A stretch of DNA of 64,000 nucleotides, taken from Bacilli bacterium (GTDB lineage Bacteria > Bacillota_I > Bacilli_A > RFN20 > CAG-826). The notes under the pieces are model-generated. The model was not told where the DNA came from and searched no databases. It saw nothing but the letters and a program-made list of their open reading frames with translations. The first letter of the stretch is position 1; each line of letters begins with the position of its first letter. The stretch covers positions 4,912 through 68,911 of the forward strand of contig JAZQOV010000011.1 in the NCBI GenBank assembly GCA_045628045.1, written 5' to 3'. This document shows, one piece after another, positions 10,456-53,613 of the stretch. The translations under genes and the position numbers were made by a program.

Positions 10456-11802
10456 ATGAAATTTGATCATGTTACTGGAAAGTGCGTTGATCTTTCCTTT
10501 GAAGGGAAAGGCGTTGTAAAGCTTTCGTATGGAACAGTTTTTGTTGATGGCTTATTCCCTGGTGAAGAAGCTGAAATAGAAATTGAATATAAACGTGCTG
10601 GTAATTATTTTGGAAAAGTTTATAGATTAATCACAAAATCTCCAGATAGAATTCAACCAAAATGTGGTGTTTGTACTGCGTGTGGTGGATGTCAACTTCA
10701 ACAACTTTCTTACAATGCTCAACTTGCTTATAAAACTAAAAAAGTAGCAGATGCTTTTAGACGTAATAAAATAGAAAATATTGAGGTTTTTCCGTGTATT
10801 TCAATGGAAAATCCCTATGAATATCGTAATAAAATACAAGTTCCAATTGGTAGAGATCCTCATGGCCATATCGTCTCCGGATTTTATAGAAGTGGCACTC
10901 ACAAAATCATTCCGGTGGACAAATGTTGGATCGAATCAAAGGAAGCACCAAAGATAATTTCTGAAATCAAGAACTTGATGAAGGAATTTCATTATGCTCC
11001 ATATGATGAAGACACAAGAACAGGTCTTATTCGACATGTCTTAATTAGAACTTCACTTCACTATAAAGAAATCATGGTTACTCTTGTTACTAATAAAGAT
11101 GAATTCAAAGGAAAGAATAATTTCGTTAAAGCTTTAGTGAAACGTTGTCCTCAAATTACAAGCATTGTTCAAAACATTAATACGAGAGACACAAATGTAA
11201 TTCTTGGAGAAAAAGAAAGAGTCCTTTTTGGCCCTTCTGTAATTAAGGATTCAATACTTGGCGTTGACTTCTTAATTTCATCAAAATCATTCTTCCAAGT
11301 AAACCCTGTTCAAGTTGAAAATCTATACAAATTCGCCATTAATTTCGCAAATTTAAGCAAAGAAGAGAACATTTTTGATGCTTATTGTGGAATTGGAACA
11401 ATCTCGTTATGCGCATCAAAATATGTTAATAAAGTTGTTGGCGCAGAGATAGTTAAAGAAGCAATTATTGACGCTAAAAAGAACGCTAAATTAAATAATA
11501 TTAATAATGCAACTTTTGTATGCGGAGACGCTGGTGAAGTTTTAGAAACTTTAATTAATAATGGAGAAAAATTCTCGACAGTTTTTGTGGACCCTCCTCG
11601 TAAAGGATTAGATGAAAAATTTATTAAGCATCTTCTTGAGCTTGCTCCATCGAAAATCATTTATGTTTCATGTGATCCGGAAACTTTAGCAAGAGATGTA
11701 AAAATCCTTGCTGAAAAATACGAGATACAACAAGTTCAACCTGTCGACATGTTTCCGATGACATTCCACGTTGAGACTGTTGTTTGTTTATGTCTAAAAT
11801 AA
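10456..11802 (+). CDS. rlmD: 23S rRNA (uracil-C5)-methyltransferase, RumA/RlmD family
   Basis: TRAM-like N-terminus. Fe-S cysteine cluster CGVCTACGGCQLQ. SAM-binding DAYCGIGTISL, VFVDPPRKG, YVSCDPETLARD. Confidence 0.9.
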   Translation: MKFDHVTGKCVDLSFEGKGVVKLSYGTVFVDGLFPGEEAEIEIEYKRAGNYFGKVYRLITKSPDRIQPKCGVCTACGGCQLQQLSYNAQLAYKTKKVADAFRRNKIENIEVFPCISMENPYEYRNKIQVPIGRDPHGHIVSGFYRSGTHKIIPVDKCWIESKEAPKIISEIKNLMKEFHYAPYDEDTRTGLIRHVLIRTSLHYKEIMVTLVTNKDEFKGKNNFVKALVKRCPQITSIVQNINTRDTNVILGEKERVLFGPSVIKDSILGVDFLISSKSFFQVNPVQVENLYKFAINFANLSKEENIFDAYCGIGTISLCASKYVNKVVGAEIVKEAIIDAKKNAKLNNINNATFVCGDAGEVLETLINNGEKFSTVFVDPPRKGLDEKFIKHLLELAPSKIIYVSCDPETLARDVKILAEKYEIQQVQPVDMFPMTFHVETVVCLCLK

Positions 11803-11826
11803 CGATGCATTCTCGATGTGTTTTTC

Positions 11827-12711
11827 TTAATTTAATATTGATATATATTTATTCAATCTTTCCAATAAATATTTAGATATAAGTTTTTTCATTGGCTCAA
11901 GATTGTGCTTTAAATGAAATGCATCAAAAGCATCATAATAAGCACGTCTGTCGCTATATTTAATATCAATAGGTGGGAATCCTTGTTTCATTAATTCTAG
12001 ATTTAATAAGAGCCTTCCAGTTCTTCCGTTTCCATCAATAAAAGGGTGAATTGCTTCAAATTCAATATGGAATCTTGCTAATTTTGTAACAATATCTTCA
12101 TTAGATGTATTGTAGTTACAAATTAATTCATTCATTTTTGGTTCAATAGCATACGGTTGAACAGGTGTATGCTTTGAGCCCATTATTCTGACAGGGACCC
12201 TTCTGTAAACCCCTTTGTCTTGAGGTTGATCAGATAAAACCAAGGCATGTATTTGTTTAATTATACTTTCACCAATTTCAGTGTTTTCTTTCACTAAGTC
12301 GCATATAAAATCAAACGCTTCTTTGTGGCCAACAACTTCGAGATGATCTTTTAATGGTTTTTTGTCAATGGTAAGACCTCTTAGAACCATATCCGTTTCT
12401 CTTAGTGTTAATGTATTACCTTCGATGGCGTTGCTGTTATATGTGAACTCTACAACGAATTCCTCATTTAATCTTTTAATTTCGCCAGGCGTTAATGGCC
12501 TTTTAGAATCTAATATATTTTTAAGTTCTAAAATTTTGGATAAATAGTTTTCGTTGTTTTTGATTCTGCCATCAATTGGTTTTACGGCATCATCTGGTAT
12601 AAACCACGTTTTTCCATACAATTCTGCTCCATCAATTTTGCCTTCTGCACAAAGAATGCGAATCCTTCTGTCAGATATATTCCATTTTAGACTAGCTTCT
12701 TTAGTATTCAT
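11827..12711 (-). CDS. Fic family protein (class II, N-terminal HTH)
   Basis: Fic motif HPFIDGNGRTGR. Inhibitory helix motif SNAIEG ([S/T]xxxE[G/N]). N-terminal excisionase/MerR-like HTH (KEASLKWNISDRRIRILCAEGKI). Confidence 0.9.
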   Translation of the reverse strand: MNTKEASLKWNISDRRIRILCAEGKIDGAELYGKTWFIPDDAVKPIDGRIKNNENYLSKILELKNILDSKRPLTPGEIKRLNEEFVVEFTYNSNAIEGNTLTLRETDMVLRGLTIDKKPLKDHLEVVGHKEAFDFICDLVKENTEIGESIIKQIHALVLSDQPQDKGVYRRVPVRIMGSKHTPVQPYAIEPKMNELICNYNTSNEDIVTKLARFHIEFEAIHPFIDGNGRTGRLLLNLELMKQGFPPIDIKYSDRRAYYDAFDAFHLKHNLEPMKKLISKYLLERLNKYISILN

Positions 12712-12730
12712 TATCGATTGCCTCCGACTT

Positions 12731-12789
12731 TATCGGAATAATAATAACACATATCGGAATAATAATAAAGCAATATCGGAATAATATTA
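12731..12789 (-). promoter_or_regulatory. three phased direct repeats TATCGGAATAATAATAA in the fic 5' region
   Basis: Copies start at 12731, 12752 and 12774 (third ends ..ATATTA), spaced 21-22 bp. They lie between a candidate TATAAT on the minus strand (about 12811-12816) and the fic start. Confidence 0.5.
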
Positions 12790-12981
12790 AAAATGTGTTT
12801 TTGTTTCACGATTATAACGATTTGGGATACGTACCTAATTTGTTACACCAAAAGTGTAACCGCGTGTATCGGTGACTAGTAGTAACACGTGATTACAAGT
12901 GACATGTTTGTTAACATCGAGGTAGGGTTGCAAAAATGTATGTAACACGGTAATAAAATGGTAATGGTTTTCCTATTGTTT

Positions 12982-13008
12982 TTGACAAAAATTTAGTTTC
13001 AGTATAAT
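12982..13008 (+). promoter_or_regulatory. candidate sigma-A promoter of the LRR surface-protein gene
   Basis: TTGACA (12982-12987) and TATAAT (13003-13008). The spacer is only 15 nt, so confidence is moderate. Confidence 0.4.
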
Positions 13009-13167
13009 ACAGTTATATGACAGCCACGTATAGGCAAAACACTAATCATACGTCTTGTTACGGTACATGTGGAGACTGTCGTTTCGTTAATTTTTAAGCA
13101 AAAATAGCAAATTGTTGTTGCTCCCTGCAATTTGACTTTTATATATTGTTTCTTTACAATTCATATT

Positions 13168-15582
13168 ATGAATTACTTTAAAAACATCAGTAAAAACACA
13201 AAAATATTGGCGATTTTGCCGTCATTTTTCTTAACTCTAGTTTCGTTTGTCTCGATAGGACACGACAAAATATCTGAAGTAAAAGCAGAAGAAAATAAGA
13301 TTTTTATAGCAATTGATAGCACAGAAGGAATTGGCTACATTTCGTCTGTCGATAATGATTTAATTCGTGGGACAAATTATTTTTGCGAAGTTGATCCAAC
13401 TTTAACTCGTTCAGCGACAATCTTTTTACAAGATAAATACCAAGGATCCCAAGATTACTTAGGAGACATAAAAAAAGTCGTAATTTTAGATAATGTCGAG
13501 CTTAATAACTGTTCCTTCCTCTTTGGAAATCTCGAAAATCTAGAAACTATTGAGAATTTAGGAAACATTAGTGTTCCAGTATGTTCATCTTTCGAATATA
13601 TGTTCAGTGGTTCTCCAAAATTAAGAGAAGTGGATTTTACAGGTTTTGATGTTTCTAATTGCAGTAGTTTTAAAAACATGTTTTATGACTGTGCACTTGA
13701 AACAATAGATTTATCTGATTTTGACACTTCAAGTTGTGGTGATTTCCACTATATGTTCGATTCATGTCGCAATTTAACATCCTTAGATTTATCTTCTTTT
13801 GATACAAGAAATGCTTCGTCAATGGTAGGCATGTTTTCTGGATGCTCTTCATTAGAATATCTCGATATTTCAAGTTTTGATTTATCAAATAGCCCACGCA
13901 CTGATGAATTTTTATTTGGCACAAAACCAAAAGTTATTGTTGCGCCTAAGTGTGTTCCGGAGCACGCAGTTGATAATATTGTTAAATTTGATCTTCCTCA
14001 AGAAACAGAAGAAAAACCTTACTATTATGATTATGACCTCAACACTTATGAGGAAATGGCTGAATCCAATAAATCTATAACTTATTATCACCACTCATTA
14101 ATACGTACGCTTGAATCTGCGTCGTTTACTTGTTCAAATTCTTTTAAAGAATACGAAGATTTAGATAATTTAGATATTGATGAATTAATTTCGCATTGGG
14201 ACTTCCTTTACGATACGCTTTTTGGATTTCTTCCAAAGAAAGACAATGAACCAATTTACACAATTTTAGAAAAATGCAAGGCTGACACCATCAACGTTGA
14301 AGTAGGAAAATGGCTCACTATTTATGACAAGGTTTATCCACACTATTGCCATGCTTTACAAGAATGTGGTGGAGACTTTTTGAATAGATGTCCAGACGCA
14401 TTAGATCCTGATGGTCTTGTTCATATTGGAGTAAATACAGATGAAAATATTGGTTATCTTTCTTCTTTTGATACCTACGAAATCTTAAAATCTGATTTGC
14501 GAACAAAAGTCGATTTATCCGTGAAAACCATAGGAAATTCAGTATTTTCTCTCTTAGATTCGAATGGATATGAAGATATTACTAAAGTCGTAATTCAAGA
14601 TGAAATTAGTCTTTCGGATTGCTCAAATTTCTTTAAAGGTTTGACCAATCTTGTTTTAATTGATGGAATGAAAAAAGTAAATACTGAGCTCAACACAAAA
14701 TGTATTTCAATGTTTGAGGATTGTTCTAAATTAGAATCTGTTGACTTATCTGCATTTAACACAGAGAAGGTTATTGTTACAGATTGCATGTTTAAAGGAT
14801 GCGTATCGTTAGGAGAAATTACTGGACTTTCTTTCACCTCAAAAACATTAGTTTCTATGTCAGAGATGTTCTCAGGATGCCAAGCCTTAGTATTACTTGA
14901 TTTATCTAGTTATGATTTAACTAACGTAGAAAACACCTTTAATTGTATTTATAATACAACTCCTAATTATATTAAGACTCCAAAAGCGATGCCTACTAAA
15001 GCAAATTGCGATATAGATTTGTATTTCCCTATGGGCATTATAAATTTTGGTTACTACGATTTGTCTTTTGCTACATACACCAAATTACCAAGTATCAATA
15101 GTTCCATTACATTAATTAGTGAAATCGGCAAATATGTCTTAGAAGATTTCTGTGATGATTTTGGTAAAGACACCGCGTATTATTGCGATGCAAACGGAAA
15201 TACAGCAGAAGCAAAATTAATTAGTCTTTGGGAAGGGCAATCTAAGGAATTCAATAAGCACTTTAAAGGTACTCAACACGAATGTTTATTAGAATTCTTT
15301 GGGAAAGATAATTCTTCATGTACTAACACTTCATTGAAGAATTTCTCGGCAAAATATGACTATATTTACGGAAAATACCAATCATTTTTAGATGAACATG
15401 GTGGAGATTTCGCTAATAGATCAAAGCTTATTTCATTCCCAAATAGTTCAGCATTTATTCGTTTCAATCACACTACAAATGAGTCATCTGTTTTAATAAT
15501 TTGTATTATTTCTATTGCTAGCGTTTCAACATTAATTTGTTTAGTGTTTACAAAAAAGCGTATTTCTGCTAAAAGGAAATAA
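13168..15582 (+). CDS. BspA/DUF285-type leucine-rich-repeat surface protein, internally duplicated, C-terminal TM anchor
   Basis: ATG at 13168 gives a signal/anchor peptide; the track start at 13132 is TTG. Repeats of the form C..L..LDLSSFDTS...M..MF.GC. The two halves (about aa 40-420 and 420-800) share the same architecture. Hydrophobic C-terminus followed by KKRISAKRK. Confidence 0.8.
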   Translation: MNYFKNISKNTKILAILPSFFLTLVSFVSIGHDKISEVKAEENKIFIAIDSTEGIGYISSVDNDLIRGTNYFCEVDPTLTRSATIFLQDKYQGSQDYLGDIKKVVILDNVELNNCSFLFGNLENLETIENLGNISVPVCSSFEYMFSGSPKLREVDFTGFDVSNCSSFKNMFYDCALETIDLSDFDTSSCGDFHYMFDSCRNLTSLDLSSFDTRNASSMVGMFSGCSSLEYLDISSFDLSNSPRTDEFLFGTKPKVIVAPKCVPEHAVDNIVKFDLPQETEEKPYYYDYDLNTYEEMAESNKSITYYHHSLIRTLESASFTCSNSFKEYEDLDNLDIDELISHWDFLYDTLFGFLPKKDNEPIYTILEKCKADTINVEVGKWLTIYDKVYPHYCHALQECGGDFLNRCPDALDPDGLVHIGVNTDENIGYLSSFDTYEILKSDLRTKVDLSVKTIGNSVFSLLDSNGYEDITKVVIQDEISLSDCSNFFKGLTNLVLIDGMKKVNTELNTKCISMFEDCSKLESVDLSAFNTEKVIVTDCMFKGCVSLGEITGLSFTSKTLVSMSEMFSGCQALVLLDLSSYDLTNVENTFNCIYNTTPNYIKTPKAMPTKANCDIDLYFPMGIINFGYYDLSFATYTKLPSINSSITLISEIGKYVLEDFCDDFGKDTAYYCDANGNTAEAKLISLWEGQSKEFNKHFKGTQHECLLEFFGKDNSSCTNTSLKNFSAKYDYIYGKYQSFLDEHGGDFANRSKLISFPNSSAFIRFNHTTNESSVLIICIISIASVSTLICLVFTKKRISAKRK

Positions 15583-15607
15583 TTAAGTAATATAGGAGGA
15601 ATAAATA

Positions 15608-16525
15608 ATGAAAAATAACTTTAATAAGGCAGCGTTGTTATTACCAATTATTTTAACTTCGTGTTCTTTAGCGACTTCCGGAGAAAAAGCAAAAAATTTT
15701 TACGACAAAATTTGTGATGAGATAATAGAATTTGGAAACCCTAGAGATGATGATTTTGCTATTTCTTTCAAAGGTCGTTACAAAATTGGTGATGTCGAGA
15801 TTAGAAATATTGACGGCTTTTTCGATGGTAGATTTATAAATATTATTGGTGATTATTATAACGAAAGACTGACCGCAAAATATTATACATTTGATGAACT
15901 AGGCGAAAACGGATTGCCTTATCCATATACTTACTCATCTTTGTTAAATTCAGAAAATGAAACAGTTCTTGTTAGTAGAAGAAAACCATTTGATGGAATA
16001 CAAAATTATTGTGTTTTCCCGGACAAAATTGATGAATATAACGAAATTTACAATAATATTTTTAGAGTTTCGATATGTATAATGGAGTATGGATTATTTG
16101 CTTCTGATCGTTATAGTGAAGAATCGCTCAAACAAGTTTTCTTGTTAGCTGATGAAGAAAGAATTGAATTTGATTTATCAGATCGCGTTAAGTATAGTTA
16201 TGAAAAGAATGAAAATCTTGTTTTTACGATTTCTAGCGATTTAGATTCAATTGGGCCTTTTACTATTCTTTCTCCGGATCAATCAGTCAGATTTGCATAT
16301 TGGAATAAAATGGCAAACGGACCGACAGGAAATTATTGGAAGAAAATCACGGTAGATAAGAAAACATATCAAGTTAAGAAAGTTGAAGTTTCATATAAAG
16401 GAATTGATACAAGATTATTACCAGGCGCGTCGACAGACTTTTATTTTGAATTTGAGCCTCGTGAGCAAAGCACTTCATCTTATAAAGATCAATTTAAGAT
16501 AAGTTGCGATTCATATTTTGATTAA
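15608..16525 (+). CDS. lipoprotein, function unknown
   Basis: GGAGG RBS. Signal peptide with lipobox ILTSC. Confidence 0.7.
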   Translation: MKNNFNKAALLLPIILTSCSLATSGEKAKNFYDKICDEIIEFGNPRDDDFAISFKGRYKIGDVEIRNIDGFFDGRFINIIGDYYNERLTAKYYTFDELGENGLPYPYTYSSLLNSENETVLVSRRKPFDGIQNYCVFPDKIDEYNEIYNNIFRVSICIMEYGLFASDRYSEESLKQVFLLADEERIEFDLSDRVKYSYEKNENLVFTISSDLDSIGPFTILSPDQSVRFAYWNKMANGPTGNYWKKITVDKKTYQVKKVEVSYKGIDTRLLPGASTDFYFEFEPREQSTSSYKDQFKISCDSYFD

Positions 16526-16531
16526 GATAAA

Positions 16532-16560
16532 GCATCCTTAAAAGGATGCATTTTCTTTTT
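16532..16560 (+). terminator. intrinsic terminator
   Basis: GCATCC-ttaaaa-GGATGC followed by ATTTTCTTTTT. Confidence 0.7.
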
Positions 16561-16587
16561 AAAAATGGATTTTTAGAAAATAATTAA

Positions 16588-16617
16588 TTGAATCTTTGCA
16601 TCAAAATTAGTTATAAT
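16588..16617 (+). promoter_or_regulatory. promoter cassette P, copy 1
   Basis: TTGAAT-N18-TATAAT. Near-identical cassettes at 16857-16886 and 17439-17468. Confidence 0.6.
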
Positions 16618-16623
16618 ATTTTT

Positions 16624-16698
16624 ACCACAATACACCTTATGGTGTGATTAGTGATTAAGATCGGTGTTTCGACCGCTTAGTGCGGTGCCGGTCTTTTT
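16624..16698 (+). ncRNA. candidate sRNA 'RNA-A', copy 1 (orphan)
   Basis: Begins about 7 nt after the TATAAT. 5' hairpin CACAATACACC/GGTGTGATTAGTG. GC-rich nested hairpin GATCGG..ACCGC-ttagt-GCGGT..CCGGTC followed by T5. No plausible ORF. Confidence 0.5.
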
Positions 16699-16759
16699 CT
16701 TTCCGGATAAAGTTTATATATTGTATTTTACATAATATTATTCTTTGTTATAATAATGA

Positions 16760-16828
16760 TGCGGTTGCGATAAAAGGCTTATGCCTCGCAGTGCAATTAG
16801 GGCACCTTAATGGCAGCCTTTTTCTTTT
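16760..16828 (+). ncRNA. candidate sRNA 'RNA-B'
   Basis: Own promoter TTTACA (16727-16732), N16, TGtTATAAT (16746-16754). GC-rich alternative helices (TGCGA/TCGCA, GTGC/GCAC, AAAAGGCT../..AGCCTTTT). T-runs on both sides, so it may act as a bidirectional terminator. Confidence 0.35.
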
Positions 16829-16856
16829 TAAAAATAATATTTTAGAAAATAATGAA

Positions 16857-16886
16857 TTGAATTTTTACATCAAAATTAGTTATAAT
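16857..16886 (+). promoter_or_regulatory. promoter cassette P, copy 2
   Basis: TTGAAT-N18-TATAAT, near-identical to copy 1. Confidence 0.6.
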
Positions 16887-16892
16887 ATTTTT

Positions 16893-16968
16893 ACCACAAT
16901 ACACCTTATGGTGTGATTAGTGATAAAGATCGGTGTTTCGACCGCTTAGCGCGGTGCCGGTCTTTTTT
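16893..16968 (+). ncRNA. candidate sRNA 'RNA-A', copy 2, antisense to the 3' end of the minus-strand ORF 16917-17312
   Basis: Same hairpins as copy 1, with differences confined to the linker, loop and T-run. Overlaps the stop codon and last ~17 codons of the convergent gene. Confidence 0.5.
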
Positions 16969-17312
16969 CTTTCTAGATAAAGTTCATATATTGTATCTGA
17001 CTTAAGAACATCCTTTTTGGACAACCCCCTTTTTATGTACTTCTCGCTATAGGTTTTCGCAGGGTAACTCCTAATTCTTTGTATAAAATAACTCTGCAAC
17101 GAATTATTTACTTTAAATGGTTTACATAACTTCGTATTTGCCTTGCCTTCCGAATAAGGCTTTGAAGTCAAAAAAACACTTGATAAGATTAGCCCATCTT
17201 TTGTAGCTATAATTGCTTTAATGTGGCCATAATGTCCATGTTTATAATTATAACGAATTTGCCCAATTCTATAATTTCTTCCGATATTGATTTTAATAAT
17301 TTGTTTGCACAT
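16917..17312 (-). CDS. PemK/MazF-like (SH3-fold) putative toxin, no adjacent protein antitoxin
   Basis: AAGGAG RBS. Pattern match by eye to the MazF/Kid layout: IGQIRYNY.., HIKAIIATKDGLILSSVFLTSKP (..TS motif), SYFIQRIRSYPAKTY...GLSKKDV. Weak, unverified similarity. Confidence 0.4.
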   Translation of the reverse strand: MCKQIIKINIGRNYRIGQIRYNYKHGHYGHIKAIIATKDGLILSSVFLTSKPYSEGKANTKLCKPFKVNNSLQSYFIQRIRSYPAKTYSEKYIKRGLSKKDVLKSDTIYELYLERKKTGTALSGRNTDLYH

Positions 17313-17327
17313 GTTGTTGTCTCCTTG

Positions 17328-17419
17328 GGCTCAAGAATATTTTACCATCTCTAAAGCAAGCCGATTCCCGTTTTTCATAACATTTTAAAGAACATAGTTC
17401 TTTCTTTTTAAAATTCAAC
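17328..17419. repeat. ~91-bp upstream-region repeat, copy X (second copy at 51903-51993)
   Basis: Homologous by eye to 51903-51993. Contains the palindrome AAAGAAC-N3-GTTCTTT (17387-17403), a conserved CCCGTTTTTCATAAC block and a minus-strand TGnTAAAAT extended -10. Confidence 0.7.
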
Positions 17420-17438
17420 ATTTTTAGAAAACAATGAA

Positions 17439-17468
17439 TTGAATTTTTTCATCAAAATTAGTTATAAT
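17439..17468 (+). promoter_or_regulatory. promoter cassette P, copy 3 (drives the SAM riboswitch)
   Basis: TTGAAT (17439-17444), N18, TATAAT (17463-17468). Flanks are homologous to copies 1 and 2 up to ..TATAATATTTTTACCA. Confidence 0.6.
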
Positions 17469-17474
17469 ATTTTT

Positions 17475-17600
17475 ACCATAAAGAGTACGGCGAGGGACAA
17501 GCCCTATGACCCGTCAGCAACCTGCGTATAGCAAGGTGCTAAAGCTTGACTGATGGTTGTTTTTATTTTATAAGCCGTCAGTATCGATGGCTTTTAATTT
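17475..17600 (+). promoter_or_regulatory. SAM-I (S-box) riboswitch with terminator/antiterminator expression platform
   Basis: S-box core strings in order: ACCAT-AAAGAG..GAGGGAC..AGCCCTATGA..CCGTCAGCAACC..AAGGTGCTAAA..ATGGT. Terminator AAGCCGTC-agtatc-GATGGCTT followed by TTTAATTT (17572-17600). ACTGATGG (17549-17556) can instead pair with CCGTCAGT (17575-17582) as an antiterminator. Confidence 0.8.
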
Positions 17601-17625: not shown

Positions 17626-17880
17626 ATGCCACAGAAAACATTACAAAACGATCTTTACGTAGTCGTTATCTCTTCTAAAGAAGAAAGAGATGAACTTAAA
17701 GCATTATGCGTAAAACATAACATTCCTCTTCTTTATCCAGAGTTATTTAAGGAAGAGGAGATTCATCACTTATGGGGAATCTCTAAAAACGGTGTTGCTT
17801 TAGTGGGCACAATGATTGCAAGACATACACCTAAAGAGAATATATTTCATTCTGTTAAAGAACTGGAATGTATTCTCTAA
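17626..17880 (+). CDS. 84-aa protein of unknown function under SAM-riboswitch control
   Basis: ATG at 17626 preceded by AAGGAGG. The track start at 17557 lies inside the riboswitch terminator. No recognisable motif. Confidence 0.6.
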   Translation: MPQKTLQNDLYVVVISSKEERDELKALCVKHNIPLLYPELFKEEEIHHLWGISKNGVALVGTMIARHTPKENIFHSVKELECIL

Positions 17881-49496: not shown

Positions 49497-49868
49497 CTAG
49501 ATCTTCTTAAAATGTTTCTTAGTCTTCTGTGCGTCTAATAATTCTTTTTCCAATTCTTCTTTCTTTGGGAGATGAGTTATATATTTAGTCACAAAGATTT
49601 GGTTCGTAATATTTCCTAGTGCATATTCTACCTGTATGTGATCATAGTCAGTACACATGACAATACCAACAGGGTCATTGTCGCTCGATTTATTAACGTT
49701 TTCCTTAAAATAATTTAGGTAAGTGTTAATTTGGCCCATTACATCTTTTTTAAATGGAGTGGCTTTTAGCTCAATGAGCACATAACATTTAAGATTTTCA
49801 TTATAGAACACTAAATCGACAAAATATTTCTTGTTATCAATTAAAAATTGATACTGATTATCATTGAA
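49497..49868 (-). pseudogene. DUF1016/YhcG-type PD-(D/E)XK nuclease, C-terminal fragment
   Basis: The frame reads FNDNQYQFLIDNKKYFVDLVFYNENLKCYVLIELKATPFKKDVMGQINTYLNYF.., the nuclease core (D..ELK). It continues the N-fragment at 51240-51887. Confidence 0.75.
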
Positions 49869-49995
49869 CTACCCCCACTTAAACATTCTATGTTTAGAAG
49901 ATGGGGGATTCCTACTCAAGAATCCTCGAGGATTCAGTGTCGATAGGCTAACCCCGTAGTTCCTACGGTTTGGTGGACTACCACTATTGTTTTTG
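49869..49995 (-). ncRNA. candidate TnpB omega/right-end RNA scaffold
   Basis: Unusually GC-rich stretch abutting the tnpB 3' end. Minus-strand hairpins CCGTAG-gaa-CTACGG, GAATCCTCGAGGATTC and CCCCCATCTTCTAAACAT-agaa-TGTTTAAGTGGGGG, ending at the element boundary. Confidence 0.55.
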
Positions 49996-51132
49996 AAGTA
50001 CTAATCTAATTCCTTCTTTTTTGATATTAATTGCTGCATTTATATCTCTATCATGCTTTCTACCACAGATAGGACAAATCCAATCTCTATCATTTAATTC
50101 AAGACTTTTGTTGATGTAACCACAATCACTGCAAGTTTTACTAGACGGAAAGTACCTATCTACTTTTATTAATTCCTTACCTAACCATCTTAATTTGTAA
50201 TCTAGAAAATTGACAAAAGTTCCATATGCTCGATCAGATAGATTTCTGCCCAACTTCATTTTTGTATCTTTTGATTGCATTGATTTCAAATCTAAATTTT
50301 CTACAAAAACATAATCGTATTTATTTGCAATTTTTCTGGATTCTTTATGCAAAAAATCTTTCCTAGAATTTGAAATATGAAGTTGAAGTTTTCTGACTTT
50401 TTGCCAGGATTTAATGGAGTTTTTGCTACCTTTTTGGCATTTTGATGCTCTTCTGGTTAATTTTGCAAGTTTCTCCATTTCGTTTTGAAGATACTTTGGC
50501 ATATCTGCGTGATTGCCATCGCTATCGACATAAAGATGTGACAAAGAAAAATCTAATCCTATTGAGTTGTTGATATCAAGTTTTTCAAGCTTGTCGAATA
50601 ACTCGACGTTTGGATTATCTTCTTCACCAGTCAATGTCACAAAATACATGTTTGCAACTCTAGAGATGGTGACTGTGGTAAAAGAGAATGATTCAGGCAT
50701 CAAACGAGATACTACAACTTTAACTCTGCCTAATTTAGGAATTTGGATTTCGTTACCATCAAGGCGGAGGTTATTGTTGATTTTCATAGTTGTGTAGCTA
50801 TGATCATTTCTTTTGGATTTAAATTTTGGAAAAGAACCTCTATGTTCAAAGAAATTAATATACGCAGCATGTAAATGAATAATGGCTTGTTGCAAAGCAA
50901 CACTATCAACTTCTTTTAAGTATTCATACCCTTCTTTGTAATCAGGAAGTATTTTGACTAAATCAAATTTTCTCAATTTAAAAGAAGGATCTTCCGCGTG
51001 CTTTTCGACACACATTTCAAGAAAATCATTATAGACTTGGCGAACGCATCCTAAAGTTTTCTCAATTTGTTGTTTTTGAGAAGAATTAGGATAGATTCGA
51101 AATTTATAAGCTTTCTTTATTTTCTTTTCCAT
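49984..51132 (-). CDS. tnpB: TnpB (OrfB_IS605) RNA-guided endonuclease
   Basis: RuvC-like IGLDFS, VFVENLDLKSM, RDINAAINI. Zn finger CSDCG...CPICG. N-terminal YKFRIYPN typical of OrfB. Confidence 0.9.
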   Translation of the reverse strand: MEKKIKKAYKFRIYPNSSQKQQIEKTLGCVRQVYNDFLEMCVEKHAEDPSFKLRKFDLVKILPDYKEGYEYLKEVDSVALQQAIIHLHAAYINFFEHRGSFPKFKSKRNDHSYTTMKINNNLRLDGNEIQIPKLGRVKVVVSRLMPESFSFTTVTISRVANMYFVTLTGEEDNPNVELFDKLEKLDINNSIGLDFSLSHLYVDSDGNHADMPKYLQNEMEKLAKLTRRASKCQKGSKNSIKSWQKVRKLQLHISNSRKDFLHKESRKIANKYDYVFVENLDLKSMQSKDTKMKLGRNLSDRAYGTFVNFLDYKLRWLGKELIKVDRYFPSSKTCSDCGYINKSLELNDRDWICPICGRKHDRDINAAINIKKEGIRLVLQKQ

Positions 51133-51239
51133 ACTTATATTATACTATCATTTCTTAAGAAATGATAGTGTTATTTCATTTTTTGCTTGCAATTCATCCC
51201 GCCGCTTTACGAGCTTCAAGCGTGGGTCTTCTTGCTAAA

Positions 51240-51887
51240 TTAGATAAATCTAAAACCTGAGCCTAGTTCTAAAAGGAATTCTTTCATGTGCGTTATAATA
51301 CCTTTTTCAATTTCTTTTTCCCTAAGGTTAAAACCTTTTTTGAAGAAATTAATTACAATCGGATCTACCATTACATCTTTTGGTTCAACAATCTGATTCC
51401 CAAGAGTGGATAATTGATTCTTTTTTGCCTCTATATTTTCTTTTGAGCCCAGTAAGATTCTTTGATAGTATCCCGATTGTATTTGTCTTTTTAAATCCCT
51501 GACAGACCATCTTTGTTTTGCACACTCTATTTCATAGAATTTTCTTTCTTCATCATTTTTTACATTTAGAAGACAAAAGTAATGCCCCCATGATAAAGTG
51601 GGAAACAGTGTTTCCCAATTTTTATATATAATATAAAAATTTAACATTGCTTTAATGTTTCTTCTTGAATACCCAGAGCCGAATTCTTTGGTTAGCTCAT
51701 TAGAAATTGAACTAATCGTGCGCTTTTTATAATCGCTTTTTCCTTTATTGGAGTCGATGTCTTTTTGAATTTGTTCCCCTATATACATATAAAGCTTAAG
51801 TAATTCAGTATTAACGTTATATATGATTTTTGCCTTCGTTGTTTCTATTGCATTTTTTAAATTTATTACTAGTTTATTTTCTTTCAT
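51240..51887 (-). pseudogene. DUF1016/YhcG-type nuclease, N-terminal fragment
   Basis: GGAGGAGG RBS. WSVRDLKRQIQSGYYQRIL and ..FLLELGSGFRFI* match the DUF1016 N-region layout. The stop is created at the IS junction. Confidence 0.75.
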
Positions 51888-51902
51888 AACCTTTCCTCCT
51901 CC

Positions 51903-51993
51903 GGCTTAAGAACATTTTAACATCTCTGAGGCTAACTGATTCCCGTTTTTCATAACACTCTAAAGAACAAAGTTCTTTCTTTTGAAAATTGAC
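51903..51993. repeat. ~91-bp upstream-region repeat, copy Y
   Basis: Homologous to 17328-17419. Palindrome AAAGAAC-aaa-GTTCTTT at 51962-51978. Minus-strand TGtTAAAAT. Confidence 0.7.
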
Positions 51994-52121: not shown

Positions 52122-53297
52122 ATGTATGACATTAATATAAAAGTTTGCGAAAATACTAAAGTTTTTATTTTTAATGGTCCTATCGACTCTAACGTTACAG
52201 ACGAAATTAAAAATTTCGTTGAATCGAATTCTTCTGGCTCTGATAGCGTTATTTTTGATATGGAAAAAGTTCCATACATGTCTAGTGCAGGCCTTAGAGT
52301 AGTGCTTAAGACTGCTAAATCAGTAAAAGAATTTGAAGTTATCAATGCTTCTGTAGAGTTATATAACATTTTCGACATGGTTGGGTTTACCCAAATGATC
52401 AAAATTAAGAAAGCCATGAGAGAAATTTCTATCGAAGGAAAAGAACTTATTGGAGAAGGTTATATGGGTAAAGTCTATAGACTTGATCCAGATACAATCA
52501 TCAAAGTATTTAAAAGAACCTCTGATACTTCTGATATCGAAAGAGAAATTTCTTTGGCAAAGAAAGCATTCATTCTTGGAGTTCCTACCGCAATACCTTT
52601 TGACATAGTCAAAGTTAAAGAAGGTGGCTACGGTTCTGTATTTGAACTTCTTAAATCATCTTCATTTAATAAATTATTTATTAATCATCCTGAGAAGGAA
52701 GATGAATACATTAAGATGTACGTGAACATCATTAAGACAATTACTTCTATTGAGGCTAAAAACCCTAGTGAGTTCCCTCGTAAGATAAATGATGCGTTAA
52801 CTTGGGTAAATGGTCTTAAGGAAGCAAAAGCCTATGATGAAGCTACACTTGCTAAACTTGAAAAATTAGTTAACACAATTCCTGAGAGTTCGCACTTAAT
52901 TCATGGTGATTGCCACATCAAAAATATTATGATGCAAGGTGATGAACCATTCCTTATTGATATGGACACTTTGGGTGTTGGGCACACCATATTTGAGTTA
53001 ACTGCAATATTCTTAACTTATATCGGATATCCTGATAAATTCCCAGGAAATGTCCAGGAATTCCTAGGTATTTCCGATGAAACCGCTAAGAAATTATTCT
53101 ATTCAACAATTGATTCTTTATACGCAGATAAATCAAAAGAAGAAAGAAACACAATTGTTGAGAAATGTGCTTTGTTTGGTTATATGTGGTTAACATACAA
53201 GACATTATTATTTGAACCAGAAAATAAAGTAAGACTTGATAACGCAAAAGAGAAAGTTATGAGTCTTATTGATAAATACGACACACTTAATTTTTAA
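52122..53297 (+). CDS. STAS domain fused to an APH/choline-kinase-like phosphotransferase domain
   Basis: AAGAGG RBS. STAS string YMSSAGLRVVL. Kinase strings GEGYMGKVYRL..IIKVFK, HGDCHIKNIMM, LIDMDTLG. Confidence 0.75.
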   Translation: MYDINIKVCENTKVFIFNGPIDSNVTDEIKNFVESNSSGSDSVIFDMEKVPYMSSAGLRVVLKTAKSVKEFEVINASVELYNIFDMVGFTQMIKIKKAMREISIEGKELIGEGYMGKVYRLDPDTIIKVFKRTSDTSDIEREISLAKKAFILGVPTAIPFDIVKVKEGGYGSVFELLKSSSFNKLFINHPEKEDEYIKMYVNIIKTITSIEAKNPSEFPRKINDALTWVNGLKEAKAYDEATLAKLEKLVNTIPESSHLIHGDCHIKNIMMQGDEPFLIDMDTLGVGHTIFELTAIFLTYIGYPDKFPGNVQEFLGISDETAKKLFYSTIDSLYADKSKEERNTIVEKCALFGYMWLTYKTLLFEPENKVRLDNAKEKVMSLIDKYDTLNF

Positions 53298-53315
53298 TGA
53301 AAGAAGGACACGAAA

Positions 53316-53612
53316 ATGGAAATAAACAAACTTGTAGAGAAAGACACTCTCACACTTGCTATTGAAGGAAGACTTGATACTTTAACATCTCCAACCCTTC
53401 AAGAAACAATTAATTCATCACTTGAAGGCATTGTTCATTTAGTAATTGATCTAAAGAAAGTTGTCTATATTTCGAGTGCCGGATTAAGAGTAATTTTAAG
53501 TGCACAAAAATTAATGAATACGAAAGGTGATATGGTTGTAAAAAATTGTTCAGCTGAAGTCCTTGAAGTTTTTGAAATGACAGGATTTACTGAGATTTTA
53601 ACGATAAAATAA
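53316..53612 (+). CDS. STAS-domain anti-sigma-factor antagonist (SpoIIAA/RsbV-like)
   Basis: 98 aa. LAIEGRLDT.T...L, YISSAGLRVIL, EVFEMTGF. Confidence 0.85.
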   Translation: MEINKLVEKDTLTLAIEGRLDTLTSPTLQETINSSLEGIVHLVIDLKKVVYISSAGLRVILSAQKLMNTKGDMVVKNCSAEVLEVFEMTGFTEILTIK

Positions 53613-53613
53613 T

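What the first reader, a model, noticed from the sequence alone, without database searches (positions are those of the whole stretch)
17328..17419. Shared ~91-bp upstream region with an AAAGAAC-N3-GTTCTTT palindrome in front of two unrelated nuclease/toxin-like genes
The regions 17328-17419 (upstream of the MazF-like ORF) and 51903-51993 (upstream of the DUF1016 nuclease gene) are clearly homologous. Both lie in the same orientation relative to a minus-strand gene. Both contain a TGnTAAAAT extended -10 about 20 nt before the SD, a conserved GTTATGAAAAACGGGAATC block and the 17-bp palindrome. The coding sequences that follow are unrelated.

This implies a portable regulatory cassette and probably a common regulator for two stress/defence-type genes 34 kb apart. 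As an alternative, the palindrome plus CTTTTT could be a weak plus-strand terminator insulating the downstream promoter.
Basis: seen in the sequence. Interest (0 to 1): 0.55.

Follow-up and report, generated by a model that had tools for sequence, protein, structure and literature searches.

The report
Shared promoter module before two toxin/nuclease genes
Two unrelated accessory genes 34 kb apart, a MazF-fold toxin and a transposon-split YhcG nuclease, carry the same ~95-bp promoter region; this module recurs in front of YhcG genes in related uncultured bacteria and is better conserved than the genes, but its regulator is unknown.

Summary
Window 17321-17415 and 51896-51990 are 85% identical over 95 bp (E 4.5e-24), both directly 5' of minus-strand genes, and there are no other copies in the window.

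It is a promoter-leader module: an extended -10 (TGnTAAAAT), no -35 hexamer, a conserved block TATGAAAAAYGGGAAT exactly 19 nt upstream of the -10, and a ~20-nt leader with a Shine-Dalgarno site.

The block/-10 architecture recurs upstream of YhcG/DUF1016 genes in six other metagenomic loci. A variant precedes a homologue of the 131-aa gene. The block is better conserved (82%) than the coding DNA (64%), and diverged YhcG alleles share near-identical promoters, so "portable cassette" is supported. A PWM finds only these two sites in the window.

The AAAGAAC-N3-GTTCTTT palindrome is subfamily-specific: sites A and B, plus L020 where the spacer is N2. It is not a LexA box (which needs N4). It is too weak for a terminator (-3.5 to -4 kcal/mol against -11 to -18 nearby). 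A shared regulator is plausible but unshown.

Verdict: an ordinary kind of feature with modest interest. The more unusual find is next door: the MazF-fold gene has a conserved convergent antisense sRNA and no protein antitoxin.

The parts
17321..17415 (-). Cassette X, copy A: promoter plus leader in front of the 131-aa MazF-fold ORF
   Evidence: 85% identical over 95 bp to 51896-51990, E 4.5e-24. 99% identical in the related strain L006.
51896..51990 (-). Cassette X, copy B: promoter plus leader in front of the (IS-split) YhcG/DUF1016 nuclease gene
   Evidence: Homologous copies upstream of YhcG homologues in L020, L018, L017, L021, L023/24 and L027.
17339..17347 (-). Extended -10, TGGTAAAAT (copy A). 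Inferred TSS near 17332.
   Evidence: TG..A..AT columns are invariant in the 9-sequence alignment A3 (regex hits). The TSS is inferred, not mapped.
51914..51922 (-). Extended -10, TGTTAAAAT (copy B). Inferred TSS near 51907.
17363..17382 (-). Conserved upstream block TGTTATGAAAAACGGGAATC (about -50 to -31), with GGGAAT exactly 19 nt from the -10 hexamer
   Evidence: Exact 20-mer shared with copy B. GAAA..G.GAA invariant in A3. Constant N19 spacing in 10 copies. Mean pairwise identity 0.82 against 0.64 for adjacent CDS.
51938..51957 (-). Conserved upstream block, copy B
17387..17403 (.). 17-bp perfect palindrome AAAGAAC-ATA-GTTCTTT (about -71 to -55, centre about -63)
   Evidence: Arms identical in copy B and in L020, where the spacer is 2 nt. 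Hairpin only -3.5 kcal/mol.
51962..51978 (.). 17-bp perfect palindrome AAAGAAC-AAA-GTTCTTT, copy B
16917..17312 (-). 131-aa ORF driven by copy A: near-orphan protein with a MazF/CptN/Kid/CcdB-like predicted fold
51240..51887 (-). N-terminal 215 codons of the YhcG/DUF1016 PD-(D/E)XK nuclease gene driven by copy B
   Evidence: DUF1016_N 7e-38 and start of YhcG_C. tblastn of P0005 residues 1-215.
49869..51242 (-). TnpB-only IS200/IS605-type insertion splitting the YhcG gene (tnpB ORF 49984-51132)
   Evidence: Pfam OrfB_IS605, Cas12f1-like_TNB and HTH_OrfB. Junctions from tblastn.
49497..49868 (-). C-terminal part of the split YhcG gene (residues 214-331 of the homologue)
   Evidence: YhcG_C 6e-29. 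tblastn 81% identity.
17401..17481 (+). Cassette Y, copy 1: T-run plus TTGAAT-N18-TATAAT promoter that drives the SAM-I riboswitch. It abuts and overlaps cassette X at TTTCTTTTTAAAATT.
   Evidence: 81-bp repeat with 16821-16899 (91%) and 16552-16630 (88%). Promoter scan. Riboswitch RF00162 at 17473-17559.

Best explanation
The ~95-bp repeat is a homologous promoter-plus-leader module.

It contains a housekeeping-sigma extended -10 promoter (RTGnTAnnAT) with no recognisable -35 hexamer. A conserved asymmetric 16-20-bp element (TATGAAAAAYGGGAAT) sits at a fixed 19-nt distance from the -10, which places it at roughly -50 to -31. A short (~20 nt) leader ends in the Shine-Dalgarno site.

It is the characteristic promoter of YhcG/DUF1016 PD-(D/E)XK nuclease genes in a clade of uncultured low-GC bacteria. 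It has been exchanged between coding sequences, so in this genome it also drives an unrelated MazF-fold toxin gene.

Shown: the homology; the recurrence in front of YhcG genes; the fixed architecture; stronger conservation than the genes; restriction to these two genes within the window.

Inferred: the fixed-distance block replaces the -35 contact and is the binding site of a trans-acting factor (class-II-activator-like geometry, centre near -41). This would put the two genes, and YhcG genes generally in this clade, under common control.

The 17-bp palindrome centred near -63 is an accessory element of one subfamily of the module. It is most likely an operator for a dimeric helix-turn-helix protein. 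It is dispensable for the module as a whole.
For: - Homology A/B: 85% over 95 bp, E 4.5e-24.
- The same architecture occurs in 10 copies from 8 distinct loci, with invariant GAAA..G.GAA-(N17)-TG..A..AT and a constant 19-nt spacer.
- All copies lie 5' of an ORF in the sense orientation, 20-45 nt from its SD.
- The block has mean identity 0.82, against 0.64 for CDS nucleotides and 0.56 for protein. winB vs L027: block 93%, protein 35%. L017 vs L027: spacer plus -10 96%, CDS 51%.
- The PWM scan finds no other member among roughly 45 genes in the window, with about 0.2 hits per shuffle, so this is not the generic promoter. A canonical TTGAAT-N18-TATAAT promoter exists 40 nt away.
- The palindrome arms are 14/14 conserved in L020, where the surrounding cassette is only 71% identical; chance is about 0.71^14 = 0.008.
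- There is no RNA structure signal (z -0.26 to +0.66) and no Rfam match even at E<=1.
- The overlapping small ORF shows 8 non-synonymous against 3 synonymous codon changes, and the 1-nt indel in L020 breaks its frame.
Against: - No TSS, expression or binding data exist; everything about function is inferred from sequence.
- No regulator gene co-occurs with the cassette. The neighbours are a SAM riboswitch gene, a STAS-kinase gene and a heavy-metal ATPase.
- The block matches no motif I could name.
- The palindrome is absent from most copies (L017, L018, L021, L023; L027 is cut too short to tell). Its spacer differs (N3 vs N2), which is awkward for a rigid dimeric binder.
- High promoter conservation next to diverged genes can also arise from recent recombination rather than from selection.
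- In L008 the core GAAAAATGGGAA occurs in the opposite orientation upstream of the 131-aa homologue. That fits an orientation-independent protein site or a divergent promoter, but not a simple -35 surrogate.
- The cassette was not found in GTDB representative genomes, JGI metagenomes or IMG/VR, so the sample of copies is small and phylogenetically narrow.
Confidence: 0.6

Rival explanations
1. Passive relic. An old segmental duplication or promoter capture copied a working constitutive extended -10 promoter from a YhcG gene to the toxin gene. The block and palindrome are conserved only through shared ancestry and recombination. There is no dedicated regulator and no co-regulation beyond having the same basal promoter.
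For: - Only two copies occur in 64 kb.
- A second, unrelated promoter cassette (Y) is also triplicated in the same region, so promoter duplication is common here.
- L017 and L027 promoters are 96% identical next to 51% identical genes, which suggests recent recombination.
- Perfect 7+7 palindromes are common in this AT-rich DNA (33 in the window).
- No regulator is found nearby.
Against: - Between A and B the 14 mismatches avoid the block, the palindrome arms and the -10: 1 of 14 falls in 43 of 95 positions. This test is partly circular, because the blocks were first defined on this pair.
- Independently, across loci the block stays at 82% identity while the promoter spacer drops to 36-60% in the same pairs. 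That is the footprint of position-specific constraint rather than uniform recent transfer.
Confidence: 0.22
2. The palindrome plus the following T-run is a weak plus-strand (antisense to the genes) intrinsic terminator or insulator. It would stop antisense read-through before the divergent downstream promoter, and the rest of the cassette would simply be a promoter.
For: - On the plus strand the hairpin is followed by CTTTTT (A), CTTTTG (B) and ATTTTC (L020).
- In the two other Y units, real GC-rich terminator hairpins sit at exactly the position the palindrome occupies in front of TTTCTTTTTAAAA.
- An antisense promoter does fire into the 131-aa gene from 16857-16886.
- A loop change from N3 to N2 is easier to tolerate for a hairpin than for a dimer site.
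Against: - Stability is -3.5 to -4.0 kcal/mol (A, B) and -1.2 to -2.3 (L020), against -11.1, -12.2 and -17.7 for the SAM, gene and sRNA terminators in the same 1 kb.
- The terminator scan does not call it.
- The arms are conserved in sequence with no compensatory change.
- The antisense sRNA already has a strong terminator of its own.
- Most copies of the module lack the palindrome.
Confidence: 0.08
3. The conserved segment is the edge of a mobile gene cassette: a recombination or attachment site, or the end of a small mobile element, that carries an outward or inward promoter. The palindrome would be the recombinase or transposase recognition hairpin.
For: - Both genes are oriented against the prevailing plus-strand direction and are accessory genes.
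- The YhcG_N module of L023 and L024 is 99.9% identical from 243 nt upstream of the start, yet sits in two different genomic contexts.
- The MazF-fold module is bracketed by 81-bp direct repeats (Y).
- The window differs from L006 by a 4.95-kb insertion next to it.
Against: - There is no matching element at the 3' ends of the two genes, and no second arm or target duplication around X.
- Homology between A and B ends at the SD or start codon, as expected for a promoter swap rather than an element terminus.
- The L023/L024 shared segment begins far upstream of the promoter block, not at it.
- No recombinase is adjacent. The TnpB element lies inside the YhcG gene and has its own ends.
Confidence: 0.07
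4. The cassette is a transcribed cis-regulatory RNA (a riboswitch-like or protein-binding leader, or a leader peptide) expressed from a promoter further upstream. One candidate is the TTAAAA-N18-TAAAAT match spanning the palindrome in copy A.
For: - The promoter scan lists a minus-strand TTAAAA-18-TAAAAT at 17411-17382.
- A 42/55-codon ORF overlaps both copies.
Against: - Folding energies are indistinguishable from shuffles (z -0.26 and +0.66).
- There is no Rfam hit at E<=1.
- The upstream promoter match is not conserved in B or L020.
- The small ORF has 8 non-synonymous against 3 synonymous changes and is frame-shifted in L020.
- In L017, L023 and L027 the module directly follows a terminator, so it must contain its own promoter.
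Confidence: 0.03

Closest known systems
Extended -10 (TGn / Gram-positive TRTGn -16 region) sigma-70/SigA promoters, including activator-dependent class II promoters
   Same: RTGnTAnnAT is invariant and sits at the right distance from the SD and start codon. No -35 hexamer is present at 16-18 nt. A conserved element is centred near -41, where class II activators bind and replace the -35 contact (established knowledge of promoter architecture; sequence evidence).
   Different: The -50 to -31 element is asymmetric and matches no known activator or sigma motif that I could identify. No TSS or factor is known. Sigma-54 (GG-N10-GC), SigB (GTTT-N14-GGGWAT) and SigH-type readings were checked by eye across copies and are not conserved.
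SinR-type (XRE-family HTH) operators of Bacillus, half-site GTTCTYT
   Same: Both arms of the palindrome are exact GTTCTTT half-sites. SinR sites occur in varying numbers, orientations and spacings, and an inverted pair binds about 10-fold tighter (PMC3163267, read).
   Different: From memory, not verified in the paper text, the characterised SinR inverted repeat faces the other way (GTTCTCT..AGAGAAC), whereas here the GAAC/GTTC ends face inward. The organism is an unnamed uncultured lineage and no SinR homologue was identified. The resemblance is a 7-mer match and could be chance.
Firmicute LexA (DinR) SOS box / Cheo box, CGAAC-N4-GTTCG
   Same: It is a GAAC...GTTC inverted repeat upstream of nuclease/toxin-type genes, which are typical SOS cargo. 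A variant of the promoter block precedes a RecX-like gene in L007.
   Different: The spacer is 3 nt in the window and 2 nt in L020 instead of 4, and the flanking C/G is absent. The defining spacing is therefore not met.
Phage 'moron'-style or defence-island gene cassettes that carry their own promoter
   Same: These are self-contained accessory genes on the opposite strand to their neighbours, each with its own promoter. The same promoter fronts different cargo genes, and identical modules occur in different genomic contexts.
   Different: No phage or integrative element was identified around either site. There were no hits in IMG/VR.
Type I toxin-antitoxin loci with 3'-overlapping antisense RNA (txpA/RatA, bsrG/SR4 type); relevant to the gene behind copy A
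   Same: A convergent ~80-nt sRNA with its own promoter and terminator overlaps the 3' end of the toxin-like ORF, and no protein antitoxin is adjacent.
   Different: Type I toxins are usually small hydrophobic peptides (PMC6563280 abstract). This ORF is a 131-aa soluble MazF/CptN-fold protein. It is also not type III, since there is no tandem-repeat RNA upstream.

Membership tests
Extended -10 SigA/sigma-70 promoter | TG one base upstream of a TAnnnT -10 hexamer | tested here: met
   TGGTAAAAT, TGTTAAAAT, TGTTACTAT, TGTTATGAT, TGTTATTAT, TGTTATCAT and TGTCATAAT in 10 copies. The TG..A..AT columns are invariant.
Extended -10 SigA/sigma-70 promoter | Position and orientation: upstream of, and reading into, an ORF with an SD | tested here: met
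   All copies are sense to the following ORF. The -10 lies 12-40 nt before the SD.
Extended -10 SigA/sigma-70 promoter | Transcription actually starts about 7 nt downstream of the -10 | not testable with these tools
   No transcriptome or TSS data are available for this uncultured organism.
Canonical -35/-10 promoter | TTGACA-like hexamer 16-18 nt upstream of the -10 | tested here: not met
   The hexamers at 17 nt are GAATCG, GAATCA, GAATTT, GAATAA and similar. The consensus scan does not call the site.
Firmicute LexA / Cheo box | Inverted repeat GAAC-N4-GTTC (CGAACnnnnGTTCG) | tested here: not met
   The spacer is N3 at both window sites and N2 in L020.
SinR-type operator | 7-bp half-site GTTCTYT | tested here: met
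   Both arms are GTTCTTT. The consensus is from PMC3163267.
SinR-type operator | A SinR/XRE-type repressor encoded in the genome that binds the site | not testable with these tools
   Only 64 kb of the genome is visible. The single HTH_3 protein (19725-20294) is paired with a YafQ toxin and has no GTTCTTT site in its own upstream region.
Rho-independent terminator (plus strand) | Stable G+C-rich stem-loop | tested here: not met
   -3.5 to -4.0 kcal/mol with 2 G-C pairs, and -1.2 to -2.3 in L020, against -11 to -18 for neighbouring terminators. The scan does not call it.
Rho-independent terminator (plus strand) | U-run immediately 3' of the stem | tested here: met
   CTTTTT, CTTTTG and ATTTTC follow the stem on the plus/antisense strand.
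Known cis-regulatory RNA (Rfam) | Match to any of 4227 covariance models | tested here: not met
   There is no hit in either cassette at gathering score or at E<=1. Folding z-scores are about 0.
MazF/PemK toxin (gene behind copy A) | MazF/Kid/CcdB SH3-like barrel fold | tested here: met
MazF/PemK toxin (gene behind copy A) | Sequence membership (Pfam PemK_toxin) and an adjacent protein antitoxin gene | tested here: not met
   There is no Pfam or PDB sequence hit, even for a 13-member profile. No small upstream or downstream ORF is conserved in the window, L006 or L007.
YhcG/DUF1016 PD-(D/E)XK nuclease (gene behind copy B) | DUF1016_N plus YhcG_C domains | tested here: met
   7e-38 and 6e-29. 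79-81% identical to the intact 337-aa homologue P0005.
YhcG/DUF1016 PD-(D/E)XK nuclease (gene behind copy B) | Intact reading frame | tested here: not met
   It is split after residue 215 by a 1.37-kb TnpB element.

The most novel reading that the evidence does not exclude
The block TATGAAAAAYGGGAAT, with the GTTCTTT palindrome in one subfamily, is the recognition site of an undescribed lineage-specific transcription factor. This factor would define a small regulon of self-contained toxin and nuclease genes (YhcG nucleases, a MazF-fold toxin, possibly RecX) in an uncultured low-GC clade, in effect a dedicated switch for defence or stress effectors. In addition, the MazF-fold gene it drives would be the toxin of a new toxin-antitoxin architecture, in which a MazF/CptN-fold protein is held in check by a 3'-overlapping cis-antisense sRNA instead of a protein antitoxin or a repeat-RNA antitoxin.
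Probability: 0.25. Interest if true: 0.6.

Novelty: new member of a known kind. Interest (0 to 1): 0.3.

Why it matters
If the shared block is a real factor-binding site, it gives a direct handle (DNA pull-down or DAP-seq bait) on how solitary YhcG/DUF1016 nucleases are controlled. This is a very widespread family with no established function or regulation. It would also show that toxin-type genes in this lineage are wired into the same switch.

As it stands, the finding mainly documents an ordinary evolutionary process: exchange of promoter modules between accessory genes. Its practical value is as an annotation aid (a promoter signature for YhcG genes in this clade) and as the pointer that led to the neighbouring MazF-fold/antisense-RNA module.

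Tried and rejected
**Wider distribution.**
- The exact 19-mer scan of GTDB representative genomes gave 5 hits, all chance: no palindrome, and unrelated taxa or coding DNA.
- The two-block gapped pattern in JGI metagenomes gave 8 chance hits.
- Three IMG/VR scans gave 0, 0 and 2 chance hits.
- The cassette is therefore narrow, and the genome itself is not among the GTDB representatives.

**RNA element.** Folds do not differ from shuffles, and two permissive Rfam scans were empty. Rejected.

**Leader peptide or overlapping ORF.** There are 8 non-synonymous against 3 synonymous changes, and a frameshift in L020. Rejected.

**Alternative sigma readings.** These were checked by eye against all copies. 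Sigma-54 (GG-N10-GC) fits A and B but not L018 or the others. For SigB (GTTT-N14-GGGWAT), the GTTT is not conserved. For SigH/ComX (..GAAT), the would-be -35 is only about 4 nt away. The MerR-type 19-bp spacer idea fails because there is no -35 and no spacer palindrome. All rejected.

**LexA box.** Wrong spacer. Rejected.

**Literature search for the palindrome sequence** returned only primers and unrelated sequence.

**Organism identification.** The thymidylate synthase search gave hundreds of unnamed metagenomic relatives, and cluster look-ups carried no names. This failed, so the lineage is described only as low-GC (33% GC) with a SAM-I riboswitch and SpoIIE/STAS partner-switching genes.

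**'RhuM-like' recollection.** My memory that the small ORFs in L018 and L007 were RhuM-like got no Pfam support and was dropped.

**Mismatch-clustering tests for A vs B.** The longest identical run (20) is not significant (p 0.39). The 'named blocks' test (p 0.0015) is partly circular. The cross-locus comparison is the sounder evidence.

**First AF2 run.** With 3 sequences it was unusable (pLDDT 52). The 13-sequence run was good.

**Exact-protein look-ups around site B** failed: the proteins are not on record. No strain-level comparison of site B was therefore possible.
Full report
**1. The observation**

Reading the two regions and aligning them confirms a clear homology. A self-blast of the window places it at 17321-17415 vs 51896-51990: 85.3% identity over 95 ungapped bases, E 4.5e-24.

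The 20-mer GATTCCCGTTTTTCATAACA occurs exactly twice, against 0.01 expected. The 17-bp palindrome AAAGAAC-N3-GTTCTTT is at 17387-17403 and 51962-51978. As an isolated pattern the palindrome is not remarkable:
- 0.92 matches are expected at up to 2 mismatches.
- The window contains 33 perfect 7+7 inverted repeats with at least 2 G/C per arm, against about 12 in Markov-1 simulations.

Both copies lie directly 5' of minus-strand ORFs, 16917-17312 and 51240-51887. The products are unrelated.

**2. What the two genes are**

*Site B.* The gene has DUF1016_N and the start of YhcG_C. It is not intact. tblastn with the 337-aa homologue P0005 shows residues 1-215 at 51887-51243 and residues 214-331 at 49868-49515. 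The two parts are separated by a 1.37-kb element that encodes only a TnpB (OrfB_IS605 / Cas12f1-like TNB) protein. Both halves are otherwise undamaged (79-81% identity), so the insertion is recent.

*Site A.* The ORF (131 aa) has no Pfam hit. It is nearly an orphan:
- 3 clusters among 5.8 billion proteins.
- 13 remote relatives among 1.84 billion representatives.
- No Pfam or PDB sequence match, even with a 13-member profile.

**3. Anatomy of the cassette** (minus-strand sense)

From distal to proximal:
- TTTTnAAAAG.
- The palindrome (about -71 to -55).
- 7 nt.
- TATGAAAAACGGGAATC (about -50 to -31).
- A poorly conserved 19-nt spacer.
- TGnTAAAAT (extended -10).
- About 12 nt.
- The SD, then about 7 nt, then ATG.

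The positions assume a start about 7 nt after the -10 (near 17332 and 51907). This is inferred, not measured.

There is no TTGACA-like hexamer at 16-18 nt, and the consensus promoter scan does not call the site. The leader is only about 20 nt, which leaves no room for a riboswitch. Consistent with that:
- Folds of either strand do not differ from shuffles (z -0.26 to +0.66).
- Rfam finds nothing in either cassette, even at E<=1.
- A small ORF overlapping both copies shows 8 non-synonymous against 3 synonymous codon differences.

**4. Relatives elsewhere**

The cassette is absent from GTDB representative genomes, JGI metagenome contigs and IMG/VR. Every hit to the exact or two-block patterns was a chance match.

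Relatives were found instead by following the proteins into Logan and ENA assemblies.

*The 131-aa gene:*
- L006, a related strain, carries the identical cassette.
- L007 (78% aa) has a diverged version, ATGAAACTTGCGAAA-N16-TGTTATCAT. The same version occurs again in L007 before a RecX-like gene.
- L008 (71% aa) has only the core GAAAAATGGGAA, in inverted orientation.

*YhcG homologues*:
- L020 (69% aa) has a 71%-identical cassette that includes both palindrome arms, but with a 2-nt spacer: AAAGAAC-CA-GTTCTTT.
- L018 (68% aa) has the block plus -10, without the palindrome, in front of a 49-aa ORF that precedes YhcG.
- L017 (79% aa), L021 (70% aa), L023/L024 (67% aa) and L027 (49% aa) all have (ATGAAAAAT)GGGAAT-N16-TGTTATKAT with a longer leader and no palindrome. 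In L027 the contig starts only 17 nt upstream of the block, so that case is uncertain.
- L022 (57% aa), where YhcG is the third gene of an operon, lacks the module.

In the 9-sequence alignment the invariant columns are GAAA..G.GAA, then TG..A..AT 17 columns later, and the ATG. The GGGAAT-to-(-10) distance is 19 nt in all ten copies.

**5. Constraint versus ancestry**

Across five YhcG loci, mean pairwise identities are:
- 15-nt block: 0.82.
- Spacer plus -10: 0.61.
- First 420 nt of the CDS: 0.64.
- Protein: 0.56.

Two pairs are especially telling:
- winB vs L027: block 93%, protein 35%.
- L017 vs L027: spacer plus -10 96%, CDS 51%.

The module is therefore both position-specifically constrained (block much better kept than spacer in distant pairs) and decoupled from the gene behind it (near-identical promoters in front of very different alleles, and in front of unrelated genes).

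A PWM from the ten copies (training scores 32-51 bits) finds nothing else in the 64-kb window above 14 bits, with about 0.2 hits per shuffle. This is therefore not how the organism's promoters look in general. A textbook TTGAAT-N18-TATAAT promoter sits 40 nt away.

**6. The palindrome**

For a sequence-specific role: the arms are 14/14 conserved in L020, whose cassette is otherwise 71% identical (about 0.008 by chance), and no compensatory changes are seen.

Against a rigid dimer operator: the spacer is N3 in the window and N2 in L020, and most copies of the module lack the palindrome.

It is not a Firmicute LexA box, which requires GAAC-N4-GTTC.

Both arms equal the SinR half-site consensus GTTCTYT, and SinR sites are known to occur in varied orientations and spacings (PMC3163267). 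This is a 7-mer resemblance in an unidentified organism and remains a lead only.

A T-run follows the hairpin on the plus strand in all three lineages. In the two other units of the neighbouring Y repeat, true terminators occupy the equivalent position. However, the hairpin is worth only -3.5 to -4.0 kcal/mol (-1.2 to -2.3 in L020), against -11.1, -12.2 and -17.7 for the three real terminators within 1 kb.

**7. Most likely mechanism**

An extended -10 promoter lacking a -35 element depends on, or is modulated through, a conserved asymmetric element centred near -41. This geometry is typical of class II activator sites. In one subfamily of the module, a palindrome centred near -63 adds a second, probably repressor or co-activator, input.

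This module is the native promoter of YhcG nuclease genes in the clade and has been moved onto other accessory genes. I put:
- about 0.8 on 'promoter module exchanged between genes';
- about 0.45 on 'the block is a trans-factor site giving common regulation';
- about 0.35 on 'the palindrome is an operator'.

The combined statement is scored 0.6.

The main rival (0.22) is that this is simply a duplicated constitutive promoter with no dedicated regulator.

**8. Comparison with the known, and novelty**

This is a new instance of a familiar phenomenon: shared or duplicated promoter-operator modules, in moron-like self-contained accessory genes. No defining feature of any named operator family is met except the SinR half-site. 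Interest is modest (0.3).

The most novel reading not excluded is a lineage-specific regulon of toxin and nuclease genes, together with a MazF-fold toxin controlled by a cis-antisense RNA (probability about 0.25).

**9. Context worth recording**

*Mosaic intergenic region.* The site A intergenic region is a mosaic. Cassette X abuts a second repeat, Y (17401-17481 = 16821-16899 = 16552-16630). Y carries the TTGAAT-N18-TATAAT promoter. One Y copy drives the SAM-I riboswitch at 17473-17559.

*Antisense sRNA.* The other two Y copies drive two copies of an ~80-nt plus-strand RNA (16893-16972 and 16624-16702).
- The 16893-16972 copy is convergent with, and overlaps, the last 18 codons of the MazF-fold ORF. 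The 16624-16702 copy overlaps only a duplicated remnant of that ORF's 3' end.
- This RNA has a conserved TATAAT, a 5' hairpin with three compensatory pairs, and an invariant terminator in the window, L006, L007 and L008.
- It folds at -28.9 kcal/mol, z -4.1.
- No protein antitoxin gene is adjacent in any of the three contexts, and there is no tandem-repeat RNA upstream.
- Type I toxins are normally small hydrophobic peptides (PMC6563280 abstract), so this would be an unusual toxin-antitoxin arrangement.

*Strain difference.* Relative to L006 the window carries an extra 4.95 kb (11786-16735) between the tRNA methyltransferase gene and this module.

Noticed in passing
window 16893-16972 (+), second copy 16624-16702 (+); ORF 16917-17312 (-); also L006, L007:538-622(-), L008:441-520(-): The MazF/CptN-fold 131-aa ORF has no protein antitoxin neighbour. 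It does have a conserved convergent ~80-nt sRNA with its own TATAAT promoter, a 5' hairpin with 3 compensatory pairs, and an invariant terminator that lies inside the last 18 codons of the ORF (dG -28.9, z -4.1). The ORF's C-terminal tail (residues 119-131) is disordered in the model and is absent from remote homologues. This looks like a type-I-style toxin-antitoxin pair with a non-peptide, MazF-fold toxin, an arrangement I do not know to have been described.
   Followed up: partly
window 17401-17481, 16821-16899, 16552-16630 (+): A second portable promoter cassette (Y: T-run plus TTGAAT-N18-TATAAT plus ACCA start) is present three times at 88-92% identity. One copy drives the SAM-I riboswitch and two drive the antisense sRNA copies. 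The toxin module is thus bracketed by 81-bp direct repeats, as expected if it entered or was duplicated by recombination between Y copies.
   Followed up: partly
window 16551-16746 vs 16820-17016: A 270-bp tandem duplication (90% identity) covers the 3' end of the 131-aa ORF, the sRNA and Y. Between the units, at 16750-16835 (+), there is a further promoter-like TTTACA-N16-TATAAT followed by a hairpin-rich ~70-nt segment ending in a T-run (fold z only -0.5). It is also present in L006.
   Followed up: partly
window 49869-51242 (tnpB ORF 49984-51132, -): A TnpB-only IS200/IS605-type element is inserted in-frame-neutral after codon 215 of the YhcG gene, on the same strand. A weak Rfam 'Ref70' sRNA hit (24 bits, E 0.32) at 49852-49974 lies just 3' of tnpB, where an omega-RNA/right end would be expected.
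   Followed up: partly
window 17473-17559 (+) and ORF 17626-17880 (+): A SAM-I riboswitch (51.8 bits) with terminator 17572-17593 controls an 84-aa ORF with no Pfam match. This is unusual cargo for an S-box leader.
   Followed up: no
window 11786-16735: This ~4.95-kb segment is absent from the related strain L006, which joins the tRNA (U5) methyltransferase gene directly to the toxin module. It carries a Fic gene (11827-12711, -), an 816-aa leucine-rich-repeat surface-type protein, a 305-aa lipoprotein-like ORF and the extra sRNA unit.
   Followed up: partly
window 18156-20605: A cluster of further toxin-type genes lies next to site A: a Fic/DOC protein (18156-19214), and an HTH_3 protein (19725-20294) overlapping a YafQ/ParE-type toxin (20291-20605). 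Together with site A this forms a small toxin island.
   Followed up: no
L023:1758-3109 vs L024:1759-3109: The same YhcG_N module (99.9% identical) starts 243 nt upstream of the ATG in two different genomic contexts: next to Fic in L023, and next to a 996-aa metallophosphoesterase in L024. This suggests that the promoter-plus-gene unit moves as a block.
   Followed up: partly
L017:2760-2860, L023/L024:1800-1900 (also weaker in L018:2330-2380): A conserved RNA-like element (GGGTCAAAATYSGGSCMATACGA ... strong terminator; dG -27, z -2.1) lies immediately upstream of the YhcG promoter in several loci. It is absent from the window.
   Followed up: partly
L008:27-38: The core of the promoter block (GAAAAATGGGAA) occurs in inverted orientation 56 nt upstream of the 131-aa homologue. 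This is either a divergent promoter of the same class or a sign that the block is an orientation-independent protein site.
   Followed up: no
L007:926-965 and gene 972-1817: The variant block ATGAAACTTGCGAAA-N16-TGTCATAAT also precedes a RecX-like gene (RecX_HTH3 1e-05, at the Pfam cut-off). This is a faint hint of a DNA-damage connection for this promoter class.
   Followed up: no
window 52122-56484 (+): Divergent from site B is a partner-switching set: a STAS-APH kinase fusion (391 aa), a STAS antagonist (98 aa) and a 5TM-LYT-SpoIIE phosphatase-HATPase_c fusion (956 aa). No sigma factor gene was seen among the few nearby ORFs I scanned.
   Followed up: no
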